Assembly (NCBI GenBank): GCA_023920165.1
Contig: CP089281.1
Coordinates: 1,798,001 to 1,862,000, forward strand
DNA from: Curvularia clavata
Lineage: Eukaryota
Length of the DNA: 64,000 nt
Direction: 5' to 3'
Both the position numbers and the translations under genes were made by a program. This document shows, in pieces, positions 44,435-46,705 of this stretch (positions are counted from its first letter, which is position 1; each line of letters opens with the position of its first letter). The notes beneath the pieces are model-generated. The model saw only the letters and a program-made list of their open reading frames with translations, searched no databases and was not told the origin of the DNA.

Positions 44435-46705
44435 TTACTCTTTATCACTCTCTTCCTCGTCAATATAGTCCAAGTCCTCCAGGTCATCTTCGTCCTCGCT
44501 GTCGTTGTAATCCTCACCGTCATCTGCTTCACGACTGTCCTCGAGATCCCTGAACTGCTGACTGAATCCCTGCATTTCTGGCGGAATTTTGGCGACAGGC
44601 AGACGAACCAACACAGACTGAGTCTTCTGGATGATAGCACGCTGATCAGGAGACGACTCGCTTGTTACACGTGCAGCGGGGAGAAGGGTCCACGAACAAC
44701 AAGGGCGGCCAAATAGTACGCAATTGGTGCAAGCATTCTTGTTGACTTTGTCTTGGACACACCCTTTGTCAGCGAGATAGCCACCGTAGACAAACCGTGG
44801 TATCATGAAACAGGTGTCACACACACTGCGCGATCCGACCCGAGCGCCGCCGAAATCGCCAAAACGAGCATCCACTTGGCGAAGGCCATATTCGGGTTTT
44901 CTCATCTGAGCCTTAATTGCGTGTTCAGCGATGATGTCGCCAGGTAACATCCGAATCGGATCTGGGTTGCTGCGGAACACTATCGTCTGATTCATGGCGT
45001 CTAGATCACATTGCATCACACGTGCTTTTCCACGCATCCGAGGGATCCAAGCATGCTTGTGATTTGGCTCAGAGTTTGTGAGCCATTGAAGGAAAGATAT
45101 CGCCTTAGCATAAATAGTGAGGGATCCTGGCACACTGGCATCTTGCCAGCCGAGGACCTTTCGCGCTTGGACGTACATAAAACGCCACTTTCCCGAATTG
45201 ATAGGATGTTCCCACTCGATGCGCACAGCCCAAGAGCTGGCCTGCTCCCAGTTTTGGAAGCGGCCGATCTTTGGCAAGCGTGCCCACGGGCTGTGATGAG
45301 CACGACCGTCTTTTCGCACTTCGAAAACAAGCTCATAGGGTGATCCAGGAGGCGGAACATCTACGCCTGATTCCTGATTTTGGCTTTTTGTAAAGAAAAT
45401 GTGAACGAATTTTTTGATTTCTCCTTTCACAGTGATCTTGGTCGTGAGCGCGATCGTATTGTTCCTTAAATTGCTTGTTACCAAACGATCGGAACGGCGG
45501 TAGTACGCCATAGGCACAGTGGAGCTATCCATTACGATTTCGGCATCTTGGCGTATAAACAGGAACTTTTCAGATCTTGCTGCATACTCAAATATTGGTG
45601 AACTGCAGTTTGCTCCATGTGCCACACCACATGAAGCAAACCCACGGCGAATGAAACCTTGCCATCCAGTCATGCGGAACACTTCTTCGGAAAGTTCAGT
45701 GAAGTATTTCGCAGATTCTCCAAAGTTCAGCAGGTGTATGTTCTCGCCCCCCTGATCAAGCACCTCGGATCTGTAAGTCTGCAACATGCAAACGAATATC
45801 TGTTCAGCGAGATAGTGCAAGCCACTATCTTCACCTGGTGGGAGGACACAAAGTGCGATCATACATATGACTTCGGAGTCTCTGGTGAGAGTGCCATAGC
45901 TGGTTCTGTAGTTTTGCTTGTGGCTTTCATTCCGTTCGGCGAAGTCATTTGTCTGACCTACATAGGCATAAGACGATCGTGGCGCCCATCGATGTCCTAC
46001 TTGGTCTCCGGTGGTATGGAATCTGGCATATATTCCAGCATCCTGAGAAGATTGAAGGTCACGGATCTTATATCGACTGGATCGAAGGAGCATTGTACCC
46101 GTGAATGAACGGTCGGAAGCTAGGGTTTCGTAAAGGCCGGCTTCTTTGATTCCATCAATGATGGCCTTAGTGAGTACAGTGGTATGTTGTTTCTCTAGGT
46201 ATTCCACAAACTTCTCAGGTATTGCGTTTTGAGGTGAATTGCGAAGAGCCGTGATGAGTCCAGTAATCGTCTTGCCAAGGACACTTGTGTCAGGTGGAGA
46301 TGCAGAGTCCCAACCCCTCTTGTCAAAGCGGTAATGACCCGGCAATTGAATCTTCATATTCCACTTGTTCATGTCCGGCTGCCACCGCTTTCCCCTGCTA
46401 ATGAAGCCAAGTGGTACCCAACGATGAGTGATGCCGTCGCGCTCGGTAACACCTCTGATATAGATTTTGCCCAATTTTCGCTTTTCGTCGACTTCACAGA
46501 GCTGGCCTTGCATGCCCTTGGTGTAACTGATTGCGCCACCCTTGTCTTTGAAAGGTTTAACGATTTCGCATGCATAGACCACCTGCTCTTGGCGATGAGG
46601 AGCAGTGCTGAAGTCCAGCGAGCCACCGTAAATTATGTTTTGCCATTGCTCTGCCGTCATACCATGAAATATGGTGTTCGGAGTACCAGAGGGAACCCAG
46701 GCCAT
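44435..46705 (-). CDS. Orphan 756-aa protein: SH3-like + GIY-YIG nuclease-like + Zn2Cys6-like + acidic tail
   Basis: Intronless ORF. AGIYARF...YAYVGQTNDFAERNESH...LAEQIF motif set. C-x2-C-x16-C-x9-C-x2-C-x6-C near the C-terminus. Confidence 0.7.
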   Translation of the reverse strand: MAWVPSGTPNTIFHGMTAEQWQNIIYGGSLDFSTAPHRQEQVVYACEIVKPFKDKGGAISYTKGMQGQLCEVDEKRKLGKIYIRGVTERDGITHRWVPLGFISRGKRWQPDMNKWNMKIQLPGHYRFDKRGWDSASPPDTSVLGKTITGLITALRNSPQNAIPEKFVEYLEKQHTTVLTKAIIDGIKEAGLYETLASDRSFTGTMLLRSSRYKIRDLQSSQDAGIYARFHTTGDQVGHRWAPRSSYAYVGQTNDFAERNESHKQNYRTSYGTLTRDSEVICMIALCVLPPGEDSGLHYLAEQIFVCMLQTYRSEVLDQGGENIHLLNFGESAKYFTELSEEVFRMTGWQGFIRRGFASCGVAHGANCSSPIFEYAARSEKFLFIRQDAEIVMDSSTVPMAYYRRSDRLVTSNLRNNTIALTTKITVKGEIKKFVHIFFTKSQNQESGVDVPPPGSPYELVFEVRKDGRAHHSPWARLPKIGRFQNWEQASSWAVRIEWEHPINSGKWRFMYVQARKVLGWQDASVPGSLTIYAKAISFLQWLTNSEPNHKHAWIPRMRGKARVMQCDLDAMNQTIVFRSNPDPIRMLPGDIIAEHAIKAQMRKPEYGLRQVDARFGDFGGARVGSRSVCDTCFMIPRFVYGGYLADKGCVQDKVNKNACTNCVLFGRPCCSWTLLPAARVTSESSPDQRAIIQKTQSVLVRLPVAKIPPEMQGFSQQFRDLEDSREADDGEDYNDSEDEDDLEDLDYIDEEESDKE

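What the first reader, a model, noticed from the sequence alone, without database searches (positions are those of the whole stretch)
44435..46705. Intronless nuclear gene combining an SH3-like domain, an intact GIY-YIG nuclease motif set and a variant Zn2Cys6 cluster
Seen in sequence: GIY (46036-46028), YVG (45964-45956), then TNDFAERNESH and a downstream LAEQIF helix. Established: GIY-YIG nucleases use GIY, YIG/YVG, an Arg about 8-10 residues later and a metal-binding Glu in a later helix; all are present here. The N-terminal VKPFK...ISYTKG...WVPLGFI resembles an SH3 fold. The C-terminal C-x2-C-x16-C-x9-C-x2-C-x6-C resembles a Zn(II)2Cys6 DNA-binding cluster with a long first loop, followed by a D/E tail. 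It does not look like Slx1, a Penelope RT-endonuclease or a mitochondrial homing endonuclease. Inference: a sequence-targeted nuclease with an architecture I do not recognise.
Basis: partly seen in the sequence, partly recalled or inferred. Interest (0 to 1): 0.85.

Follow-up and report, generated by a model that had tools for sequence, protein, structure and literature searches.

The report
Fungal SH3–GIY-YIG–zinc-cluster nuclease with partner
This is a real, intact fungal gene for a large DNA-cutting enzyme of an undescribed family that joins a known nuclease core to a peptide-binding domain, a domain of unknown fold and a six-cysteine cluster, and it travels with a conserved neighbouring gene of unknown function.

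Summary
Window 44435-46705 (-) is one 756-codon ORF, and every motif sits at the stated coordinates.

- **GIY-YIG core:** supported by weak Pfam hits in 33 of 63 relatives, a structural match to I-TevI (Z 6.2, 85 of 92 residues) and conservation of Y226, Y248, G250, R258, E301 and N366.
- **SH3 domain:** supported by fold (Z up to 7.9) and by Pfam SH3_2 hits above threshold in two distant relatives.
- **Six-Cys cluster:** conserved and Zn2Cys6-like in pattern, but it fails the Pfam Zn_clus model. Its first loop varies from 6 to 31 residues.

- Residues 376-715 fold with high confidence (pLDDT 93) into a unit with no match in the PDB (best Z 3.0).
- The divergent 458-aa ORF at 47701-49077 is conserved head-to-head with the nuclease gene in three other lineages.

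The family is large (718 representative clusters) and fast-evolving. It has paralogues and a decayed copy, and spans Dothideomycetes and Chaetothyriales. I found no paper on it.

Best reading: an active, DNA-targeted endonuclease working as a two-gene, probably accessory or conflict-type module. The biological role is inferred, not shown.

The parts
44435..46705 (-). Whole ORF, 756 aa plus stop (P0001)
   Evidence: full-length homologues
46376..46588 (-). SH3 domain, residues 40-110
   Evidence: VIA Z 7.9-6.2 to SH3 domains over model residues 39-110. Foldseek probability 1.00, TM about 0.75. Pfam SH3_2 above threshold in relatives P0129 and P0154.
46061..46285 (-). Helical region, residues 141-215, with conserved IIxGIKxAGLY
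   Evidence: helices H142-209 in the AF2 model; invariant G185, A189, G190, F201 in A1; fold not assigned
45581..46060 (-). GIY-YIG nuclease domain, residues 216-375 (Y226, Y248, G250, R258, H262, E301, N366)
   Evidence: Pfam PF01541 E 0.002 on residues 243-282. I-TevI 1ln0_A Z 6.2, rmsd 2.2, 85 of 92 aligned, model 222..369. Residue counts.
45747..45752 (-). G6 homopolymer (codons Q318-G320); one base shorter in DNA data set X2
   Evidence: (table 4)
44846..45580 (-). Beta-rich domain of no known fold, residues 376-620
   Evidence: AF2 domain model pLDDT 93.4, pTM 0.92. No PDB chain with Z>=5 of 48161. Foldseek PDB best E 0.13; BFVD best E 0.1.
44681..44833 (-). Six-Cys cluster, residues 625-675 (C629, C632, C649, C659, C662, C670), Zn2Cys6-like
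   Evidence: each Cys present in 59-62 of 63 relatives; spacing C-x2-C-x(6-31)-C-x(6-12)-C-x2-C-x(6-8)-C
44438..44560 (-). Acidic D/E tail, residues 716-756, predicted disordered
   Evidence: pLDDT below 50 for residues 718-756; sequence
46706..47700 (.). Shared 995-bp divergent intergenic region
   Evidence: comparable spacing in L001 (948 bp), L005 (1025 bp) and L008 (1575 bp)
47701..49077 (+). Partner ORF, 458 aa (P0167), no known family. Invariant GPxPxNYxVxR (33-43), RPPxYARxSxG (229-239) and LGCxP (249-253).

Best explanation
The ORF encodes an active multi-domain DNA endonuclease of an undescribed fungal family.

Shown:
- It has a GIY-YIG catalytic domain with the full catalytic set: Y226, Y248, R258, H262, E301 and N366.
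- An SH3 domain and a helical region precede the catalytic domain.
- A confidently modelled unit (residues 375-715, pTM 0.92) follows it, made of a beta-rich domain of unknown fold and a six-Cys cluster.
- The protein ends in an acidic tail.
- The gene is inherited head-to-head with a 458-aa partner gene.

Inferred mechanism:
- The beta/Cys6 unit binds zinc and places the enzyme on DNA. Its variable first Cys loop and the variable hairpins at residues 376-455 may set the target.
- The GIY-YIG domain then cuts by the one-metal mechanism of that superfamily.
- The SH3 domain ties the enzyme to a proline-rich ligand. The best candidate is the invariant GPxPPNY motif of the partner, which would act as regulator, inhibitor or antidote.

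Inferred role: a dispensable, fast-evolving two-gene module of the genetic-conflict kind (toxin/antidote, allorecognition or selfish nuclease), not a housekeeping repair enzyme.
For: Nuclease domain:
- Pfam GIY-YIG hits in 18 of 21 close relatives and 33 of 63 wider relatives, best E 5.3e-5.
- I-TevI catalytic domain matched at Z 6.2, rmsd 2.2, 85 of 92 residues, 21% identity.
- Conservation over 63 relatives: Y226 63, G250 63, E301 63, N366 63, R258 60, Y248 59, H262 51 plus 8 Tyr.
- Weak TIGR01453 (group I intron endonuclease) hits in 2 of 6 members.

SH3.

C-terminal unit: pLDDT 93.4, pTM 0.92. The six Cys are each present in 59-62 of 63.

Gene pair:
- The partner is found upstream on the opposite strand in 5 of the 6 loci that have at least 2.5 kb upstream (L001, L002, L005, L008, L009). 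By their identical tblastn statistics I take L001/L002 and L008/L009 as duplicates, leaving three lineages besides the window.
- Identity is 34-47% for the partner and 34-43% for the nuclease.

Accessory character:
- 718 representative clusters at 50% identity.
- Two paralogues each in Rhizodiscina and Lasiodiplodia.
- Pleosporales members fall in at least three clades, and the median end branch is 0.94 changes per site.
- The best named relative is only 57% identical.
- There is a truncated, frame-broken relative in L010-L012.
- There is a frameshift variant in X2.
Against: - No activity, DNA binding or zinc binding has been measured.
- The Pfam GIY-YIG score of this protein (18.8 bits) is under the curated cut-off of 22.6. 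A profile of the family finds no PDB sequence.
- The I-TevI match is rank 46 of a list filled by SH3 domains, and its Z is below 8, the range the tool warns can be generic.
- The two Tyr are 22 residues apart, wider than the 10-11 I recall for classic members.
- Pfam Zn_clus does not recognise the cluster.
- The gene lies among ordinary core genes, not in an obvious mobile island, and has no flanking repeats.
- No expression data were obtained.
- The only evidence that the partner and the nuclease interact is conserved adjacency plus motif logic.
- The partner is split between reading frames in L001, L002, L008 and L009, by an intron or by decay.
- Patchiness rests on a word-indexed search and may be overstated.
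Confidence: 0.55

Rival explanations
1. It is a housekeeping structure-specific repair or recombination nuclease, an Slx1-like enzyme with a zinc domain behind a GIY-YIG core. The neighbour would be merely an adjacent gene or a non-catalytic subunit.
For: The order GIY-YIG then zinc-binding module recalls Slx1 (recalled; SLX1 as a GIY-YIG enzyme that depends on the partner SLX4 is in the abstract of PMC9071465). The locus is in a core gene region next to a photolyase gene. The catalytic set is conserved.
Against: No detectable sequence match to any PDB chain, Slx1 included, by phmmer or family profile. No RING domain in Pfam. The family has paralogues, a decayed copy and very long branches. 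Few named Pleosporales species carry it.
Confidence: 0.15
2. It is a mobile or homing-type selfish element. In this reading the two-gene cassette spreads because the nuclease cuts empty target sites, as free-standing GIY-YIG homing endonucleases do in phages and organelles.
For: The best structural match and the weak NCBIfam hits point to the I-TevI / group I intron endonuclease branch. The cassette keeps its two genes while the flanks differ between loci. A decayed copy exists. The distribution looks patchy.
Against: There are no terminal repeats or target duplications round the cassette. No second copy lies in the window. No conserved DNA words occur in the four intergenic regions. Flank differences may only reflect the large divergence between the loci. 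No empty site was seen.
Confidence: 0.15
3. It is a DNA-binding regulator (zinc cluster plus acidic activation tail) in which the GIY-YIG fold is only a scaffold.
For: The C-terminal Cys6 cluster followed by a helix and an acidic tail resembles the layout of Gal4-type activators (recalled). 2 of 63 relatives touch Pfam Zn_clus. One relative is auto-named 'Zn(2)-C6 fungal-type domain-containing protein'.
Against: The catalytic Tyr, Arg, Glu and Asn are invariant or nearly so across sequences only about 20% identical overall. That argues for selection on catalysis. No fungal transcription-factor middle region was found in Pfam.
Confidence: 0.07
4. In this strain the gene is a very recent pseudogene, and the intact frame in the window is a homopolymer-length error.
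For: X2, a DNA data set under the same organism label, has 5 rather than 6 G at 45747-45752. That contig shows no other difference over 2883 bases.
Against: The 6-G frame stays open and aligned to homologues for 436 more residues. Data set X1 holds all sampled words of the stretch. An error that restores a perfect frame is unlikely.
Confidence: 0.08

Closest known systems
I-TevI and other GIY-YIG homing endonucleases (catalytic domain, PDB 1ln0)
   Same: Same catalytic fold in the model (Z 6.2, 85 of 92 residues, 21% identity). Same residue logic: Tyr, Tyr-x-Gly, Arg at +10, His at +4 from the Arg, then Glu and Asn; the I-TevI numbering is recalled. The nuclease is joined to a separate zinc-containing DNA-binding part (I-TevI layout from a passage of PMC1564403).
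   Different: Nuclear fungal gene of 756 aa, not a phage or organelle intron ORF. It adds an SH3 domain, a helical region, a 245-residue unknown fold, a six-Cys cluster and an acidic tail. The two Tyr are 22 residues apart. A long helix (323-346) is inserted before the Asn. No homing has been shown.
Slx1 (GIY-YIG plus C-terminal RING-type zinc domain, works with Slx4)
   Same: A eukaryotic nuclear GIY-YIG enzyme followed by a Cys-rich zinc module and dependent on a partner protein (abstract of PMC9071465; the Slx1 layout is recalled).
   Different: No sequence match and no RING in Pfam. More than twice the length I recall for Slx1. Patchy, paralogous, fast-evolving family.
Fungal Zn(II)2Cys6 binuclear cluster (Gal4 type, Pfam PF00172)
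   Same: Six Cys in the order C-x2-C ... C ... C-x2-C ... C, with Asp after the first Cys. One relative has the canonical 2-6-8-2-7 spacing. An acidic region lies downstream.
   Different: The first loop has 16 residues here and 6-31 in the family. The cluster is C-terminal and the AF2 domain model has pTM 0.92 for residues 375-715, read here as one rigid unit with the beta domain. Pfam Zn_clus does not match this protein.
Spok spore-killer proteins of Podospora (functional analogy only)
   Same: Fungal nuclear genes with a proposed toxin/antidote logic. That Spok genes carry both killing and protecting activities is in the abstract of PMC4022471 (listing). That a nuclease domain is the proposed toxic activity is recalled, not read.
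   Different: Spok is a single gene and, as I recall, has a different nuclease fold plus a kinase. Here there are two genes, and no drive phenotype is known.

Membership tests
GIY-YIG nuclease superfamily (PF01541) | GIY and YIG/YVG motifs | tested here: met
   G224 57/63, Y226 63/63, Y248 59/63, G250 63/63. Spacing between the Tyr is 22, wider than the classic spacing I recall.
GIY-YIG nuclease superfamily (PF01541) | Conserved Arg about 10 residues after YIG, and a metal-binding Glu in a later helix | tested here: met
   R258 60/63 and E301 63/63; E301 lies in helix 294-308
GIY-YIG nuclease superfamily (PF01541) | Conserved Asn near the end of the domain | tested here: met
   N366 63/63, inside the range 222..369 aligned to I-TevI. 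Equivalence to the I-TevI Asn is inferred.
GIY-YIG nuclease superfamily (PF01541) | Alpha/beta fold of the I-TevI catalytic domain | tested here: met
   1ln0_A Z 6.2, rmsd 2.2, 85 of 92 aligned. This is a moderate Z from a 756-residue model.
GIY-YIG nuclease superfamily (PF01541) | Pfam score above the curated cut-off | tested here: not met
   18.8 bits against 22.6 for this protein. Relatives reach E 5.3e-5 at best, in 33 of 63.
SH3 domain (PF00018 / PF07653) | Five-stranded SH3 barrel | tested here: met
   Sla1 SH3 Z 7.9, rmsd 2.3, 61 of 64 aligned. Abl SH3 TM 0.73-0.75, probability 1.00. SH3-like barrels of Hpy99I and Spt5 score about the same (Z 6.6).
SH3 domain (PF00018 / PF07653) | Pfam score above the curated cut-off | tested here: inconclusive
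   No hit for this protein. Relatives P0129 (25.4 against 21.8) and P0154 (23.2 against 21.8) pass.
SH3 domain (PF00018 / PF07653) | Binding of a proline-rich peptide | not testable with these tools
   The candidate ligand is the partner's GPxPPNY motif; binding is not shown.
Zn(II)2Cys6 binuclear cluster (PF00172) | Spacing C-x2-C-x6-C-x5-12-C-x2-C-x6-8-C (pattern recalled) | tested here: not met
   The first loop is 16 here. Only 1 of the 58 relatives with all six Cys has 6. The other spacers fit.
Zn(II)2Cys6 binuclear cluster (PF00172) | Match to the Pfam Zn_clus model | tested here: not met
   No hit at E<=10 for residues 620-700. 2 of 63 relatives hit at E 0.021 or worse.
Zn(II)2Cys6 binuclear cluster (PF00172) | Two zinc ions held by six Cys | not testable with these tools
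   Model coordinates cannot be read here; needs metal analysis or a structure.
Slx1 | Sequence similarity to Slx1 and a C-terminal RING-type finger | tested here: inconclusive
   No PDB sequence hit by phmmer or profile. No RING in Pfam. Fold-level kinship of the nuclease core is not excluded.
Penelope-like retroelement | Reverse transcriptase fused to the GIY-YIG domain | tested here: not met
   No RT family among the Pfam hits of this protein or of 63 relatives.
Homing endonuclease gene | Sits in an intron, intein or defined insertion site, with empty alleles that it cuts | not tested
   No genome of a close relative could be searched. There are no repeats round the cassette.

The most novel reading that the evidence does not exclude
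The gene pair is a new kind of eukaryotic two-gene conflict system. In this reading a zinc-cluster-guided GIY-YIG nuclease acts as the toxin or self/non-self effector. Its co-inherited partner docks on the SH3 domain through its PPxY/PxxP motif and restrains the nuclease. The system would diversify by changing the variable Cys loop and beta hairpins, and it would act in spore killing, allorecognition or defence against invading DNA. The 340-residue C-terminal unit would then be a new DNA-recognition fold.
Probability: 0.2. Interest if true: 0.85.

Novelty: new variant of a known kind. Interest (0 to 1): 0.62.

Why it matters
GIY-YIG nucleases in eukaryotic nuclei are known mainly as Slx1, ANKLE1/LEM-3 and the endonuclease of Penelope elements (recalled; LEM-3 and SLX1 appear in the listing). 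This adds a large, fungus-specific family with a different build.

- The catalytic core is of the homing-endonuclease type and is joined to an SH3 domain, which is unusual for a nuclease.
- The confidently modelled 340-residue unit matches no solved structure and carries a Zn2Cys6-like cluster.
- If the C-terminal unit reads DNA sequence, it is a new recognition module fused naturally to the same nuclease domain that is already used in engineered Tev-type editors (abstract of PMC12663268, listing).
- If the conserved partner controls the enzyme, the pair could be a new toxin/antidote or allorecognition system in plant-associated Dothideomycetes.

Five literature searches found no paper on the family. 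Its members are named only 'hypothetical', 'GIY-YIG domain-containing' or 'Zn(2)-C6 fungal-type domain-containing'.

Tried and rejected
- **Own genome:** not held, so paralogues and synteny in the source genome could not be counted.
- **PDB by sequence:** nothing meaningful with the single protein or the family profile. The only hits were the acidic tail against CHRAC-16 at E 0.15 and TEPP at E 0.62-1.4.
- **Full-length model:** Foldseek returned only SH3 domains.
- **C-terminal unit:** VIA against 48161 chains gave best Z 3.0. Foldseek PDB gave best E 0.13. Foldseek BFVD gave best E 0.1.
- **ESM Atlas on residues 375-715:** only a weak lead (score 0.75) to an Ascomycota cluster in which 28% of members carry DUF3716. 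The structure rows all had TM below 0.35. Pfam DUF3716 hits none of the 63 relatives, so the lead stays untested. DUF3716 occurs in two proteins of the REP9 transposon of Zymoseptoria (passages of PMC8232023).
- **Partner protein:** no Pfam or NCBIfam family. Atlas scores were 0.76 or less. Only two database homologues were found.
- **Complex prediction:** nuclease residues 38-378 with the whole partner gave 'no answer', score 0.00. The tool did not use my alignments, and the partner's own fold was uncertain. This counts neither for nor against binding.
- **Expression:** no RNA holder was listed for the stretch. The RNA-like contigs X20 and X22 cover flanking genes but nothing between about 42004 and 50674. 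This gives no evidence either way.
- **Repeats:** none bracket the cassette.
- **Intergenic motifs:** no 8- to 10-mers are shared by the four independent intergenic regions (0 observed, about 0 expected).
- **Second copy:** none in the window.
- **Third homology search:** run with the wide alignment, it added only one protein (P0052) to those already found.
- **Maximum-likelihood tree:** the first run did not finish in time. The FastTree result has many long branches and a midpoint root, so only coarse statements are drawn from it.
- **Earlier findings:** three look-ups returned nothing.
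Full report
**1. The observation**

One search lists a single ATG-to-stop ORF at 44435..46705 on the minus strand, 756 aa. One search gives its translation (P0001).
- GIY at 46036-46028 (G224-Y226) and YVG at 45964-45956 (Y248-G250).
- TNDFAERNESH (252-262) and LAEQIF (299-304).
- The N-terminal VKPFK, ISYTKG and WVPLGFI strings.
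- A Cys-rich stretch at 629-670 and an acidic tail.

One correction: the conserved sixth Cys is C670 (59 of 63 relatives), not C669 (19 of 63), so the last spacer is x7.

The ORF is collinear with relatives from residue 1 to about 749 in single tblastn segments. It starts with a conserved MAWVP/MPWIP. 'Intronless' is therefore supported by comparison, although no RNA evidence was obtained.

The setting is nuclear. The contig is 2.16 Mb. The neighbours are ordinary genes: RNA methyltransferase, cutinase, Sec2, ketopantoate reductase, photolyase, alkaline phosphatase, UBX and others. RNA-like contigs of a related strain show GT..AG joints in neighbouring genes.

**2. Relatives**

A word-indexed search of 5.8 billion protein clusters found 24 relatives at E<=1e-3. 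The best is Bipolaris maydis at 57% identity. The others include Alternaria spp., Boeremia, Dothidotthia and Melanomma.

An exhaustive profile search found 718 representative clusters (50% identity level) at E<=1e-3, 461 at E<=1e-10 and 179 at E<=1e-30. Look-ups of 30 of these named the following:
- Lophium, Paraphoma, Phyllosticta, Neohortaea and Elasticomyces.
- Alternaria viburni and Diplodia.
- Rhizodiscina (two proteins on one contig) and Lasiodiplodia (two proteins).
- The Chaetothyriales Fonsecaea and Cyphellophora.

The family therefore spans Dothideomycetes and at least one order of Eurotiomycetes, and it has paralogues.

A FastTree of 63 near-full-length members was built. These were picked, with fragments left out. 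The tree shows:
- The window protein is sister to the B. maydis protein, on branches of 0.41 and 0.47 changes per site.
- Pleosporales members fall in at least three clades.
- The two Lasiodiplodia proteins lie on opposite sides of the midpoint root.
- The median end branch is 0.94.

The tree has many long branches and is used only for these coarse points.

**3. Domains**

An AlphaFold2 model of the whole protein, built from 21 sequences, has mean pLDDT 80.3 and pTM 0.80.

*SH3.* Foldseek and VIA-align both place canonical SH3 domains on residues about 40-110:
- Abl SH3: TM 0.73-0.75, probability 1.00.
- Sla1 SH3: Z 7.9, rmsd 2.3, 61 of 64 residues.

Two distant relatives pass the Pfam SH3_2 cut-off. 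This protein itself gets no Pfam SH3 hit. DNA-binding SH3-like barrels such as those of Hpy99I and Spt5 score about the same (Z 6.6).

*GIY-YIG.* Four lines of evidence agree:
- Pfam PF01541 hits residues 243-282 at E 0.002, which is 18.8 bits and under the 22.6 cut-off.
- 18 of 21 close relatives and 33 of 63 wider relatives give the same weak hit, best E 5.3e-5.
- VIA aligns the I-TevI catalytic domain (1ln0_A) to model residues 222..369 with Z 6.2, rmsd 2.2, 85 of 92 residues and 21% identity. This is rank 46 in a list otherwise filled by SH3 domains.
- Across 63 sequences that are only about 20% identical overall, Y226, G250, E301 and N366 are invariant. R258 is kept in 60, Y248 in 59, Q302 in 61, and H262 in 51 with Tyr in 8 more.

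The Y248-R258-H262 spacing (+10, +4) equals what I recall for I-TevI Y17-R27-H31. Two features differ from classic members: the two Tyr are 22 residues apart, and a long helix (323-346) precedes the Asn.

*C-terminal unit.* Residues 375-715 were folded alone with 63 sequences and gave pLDDT 93.4 and pTM 0.92. Despite that confidence, no library gave a match:
- No chain among 48161 PDB representatives reaches Z 5; the best is Z 3.0.
- Foldseek on the PDB gives no better than E 0.13.
- Foldseek on BFVD gives no better than E 0.1.

The tool notes that models without a clear match usually still reach Z 7-8, so this is an unusually empty result.

*Six-Cys cluster.* The six Cys are each present in 59-62 of 63 relatives. 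The family pattern is R-x-x-C-D-x-C-x(6-31)-C-x(6-12)-C-x2-C-x(6-8)-C-[ST]-[WFY]-[TS]. This looks like a Zn2Cys6 cluster with a free first loop, and one relative has exactly 2-6-8-2-7. Against membership:
- Pfam Zn_clus gives nothing for this protein even at E<=10.
- It gives only 2 sub-threshold hits in 63 relatives.

One relative carries the automatic name 'Zn(2)-C6 fungal-type domain-containing protein'. I therefore call the cluster Zn2Cys6-like, not a member.

**4. The partner gene**

A tblastx of window 36-56 kb against the 12 metagenome loci that hold relatives found only one conserved neighbour besides the nuclease gene: the divergent ORF at 47701-49077.
- It lies upstream on the opposite strand in L001, L002, L005, L008 and L009. 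That is 5 of the 6 loci with at least 2.5 kb of upstream sequence.
- The sixth, L010, holds only a truncated, frame-broken relative covering residues 286-679.
- L001/L002 and L008/L009 give identical statistics, so I count three independent lineages besides the window.
- Intergenic spacers are 995 bp (window), 948, 1025 and 1575 bp.

The partner (P0167, 458 aa) has no Pfam or NCBIfam family. It has only two database homologues, one of them Alternaria alternata at 44%. Its alignment shows invariant GPxPxNYxVxR at residues 33-43, which reads as a PPxY/PxxP-type motif, plus RPPxYARxSxG (229-239) and LGCxP (249-253). In L001, L002, L008 and L009 it is split between two reading frames, by a short intron or by decay.

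**5. Signs of a dispensable gene**

Besides the paralogues, the long branches and the decayed copy in L010-L012, there is a variant in a second data set. X2, a DNA data set under the same organism label, has one base fewer in the G6 run at 45747-45752 (codons 318-320). That contig shows no other difference over 2883 bases. The deletion would end the frame after the catalytic Glu but before N366 and the whole C-terminal unit. Whether it is a real allele or a data artefact cannot be settled here.

**6. Reading**

Shown: a real gene, with SH3 and GIY-YIG folds, an intact catalytic set, a conserved six-Cys cluster inside a confident unit of unknown fold, and a conserved gene pair.

Inferred:
- The C-terminal unit binds zinc and DNA and positions the nuclease.
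- The SH3 domain binds the partner's proline motif.
- The pair is an accessory, conflict-type module.

The rivals are a housekeeping Slx1-like enzyme, a homing-type mobile cassette, a regulator with a dead nuclease, and a recent pseudogene. They are weighed in their own sections.

**7. Literature**

Five full-text searches gave no paper on this family. In the 2006 survey of the GIY-YIG superfamily (PMC1564403) I saw only the passages returned for six terms. 'Fungi', 'Aspergillus', 'Neurospora' and 'SH3' do not occur in it, and 'fungal' occurs only in a reference title. For the other papers I saw the search listings and abstracts only, except for the DUF3716 passages of PMC8232023.

**8. Verdict**

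The finding is real and better than ordinary, but the catalytic core belongs to a known superfamily. I rate it a new variant of a known kind, with interest 0.62. The score is raised by the unknown fold and the conserved partner, and held down by the lack of any functional or expression evidence.

Noticed in passing
window 50565-52415: A repeat with 72-nt inverted ends, 94% complementary and 1707 nt apart. It holds an ORF with HTH_psq and Tc5-transposase DNA-binding hits, so it is a pogo/Tc5-type transposon remnant. Summed contig depth in X2 is about 1100 against about 47 for the flanks. The differences of X2 contigs are mostly C>T (65) and G>A (77), a RIP-like bias.
   Followed up: partly
window 49709-50387 and 52511-52546: Long GAA/GAC/GAT triplet runs, which would read as Glu/Asp if coding, lie just beyond the partner gene. 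Whether they are coding was not checked.
   Followed up: no
window 45747-45752: The G6 run inside the nuclease ORF is one base shorter in the X2 contigs, giving a frameshift at codons 318-320.
   Followed up: partly
window 46691-46705 (-) and 47701-47718 (+): Both proteins of the pair begin alike, MAWVP and MAPYVP, and both starts are conserved in their families. This may be chance or a shared N-terminal signal.
   Followed up: no
L010 10001-11169 (also L011, L012): A relative reduced to residues 286-679 and broken between two frames. It lacks the first half of the nuclease domain and has no partner gene within 10 kb upstream.
   Followed up: partly
L001 2082-3414, L002 4509-5841, L008 398-1725, L009 652-1979: The partner homologue is split between two reading frames in these loci, by a short intron or a frameshift. 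It is one open frame in the window.
   Followed up: no
window 36084-36132, 39029-39083, 53496-53544: RNA-like contigs X20 and X22, about 3% diverged from the window, skip 47-53 nt here. The joints are GT..AG at the first, CT..AC (minus strand) at the third and TG..CT at the second. I read them as introns of the ketopantoate reductase, photolyase and a downstream gene.
   Followed up: no
window 38616-40446 (-): A DNA photolyase gene lies two genes from the nuclease gene. This is probably coincidence.
   Followed up: no
P0001 residues 182-192 (window about 46130-46162): The conserved IIxGIKxAGLY in the helical region looks like a helix-hairpin-helix motif. One of 63 relatives touches Pfam IMS_HHH at E 0.045. 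The fold was not assigned.
   Followed up: no
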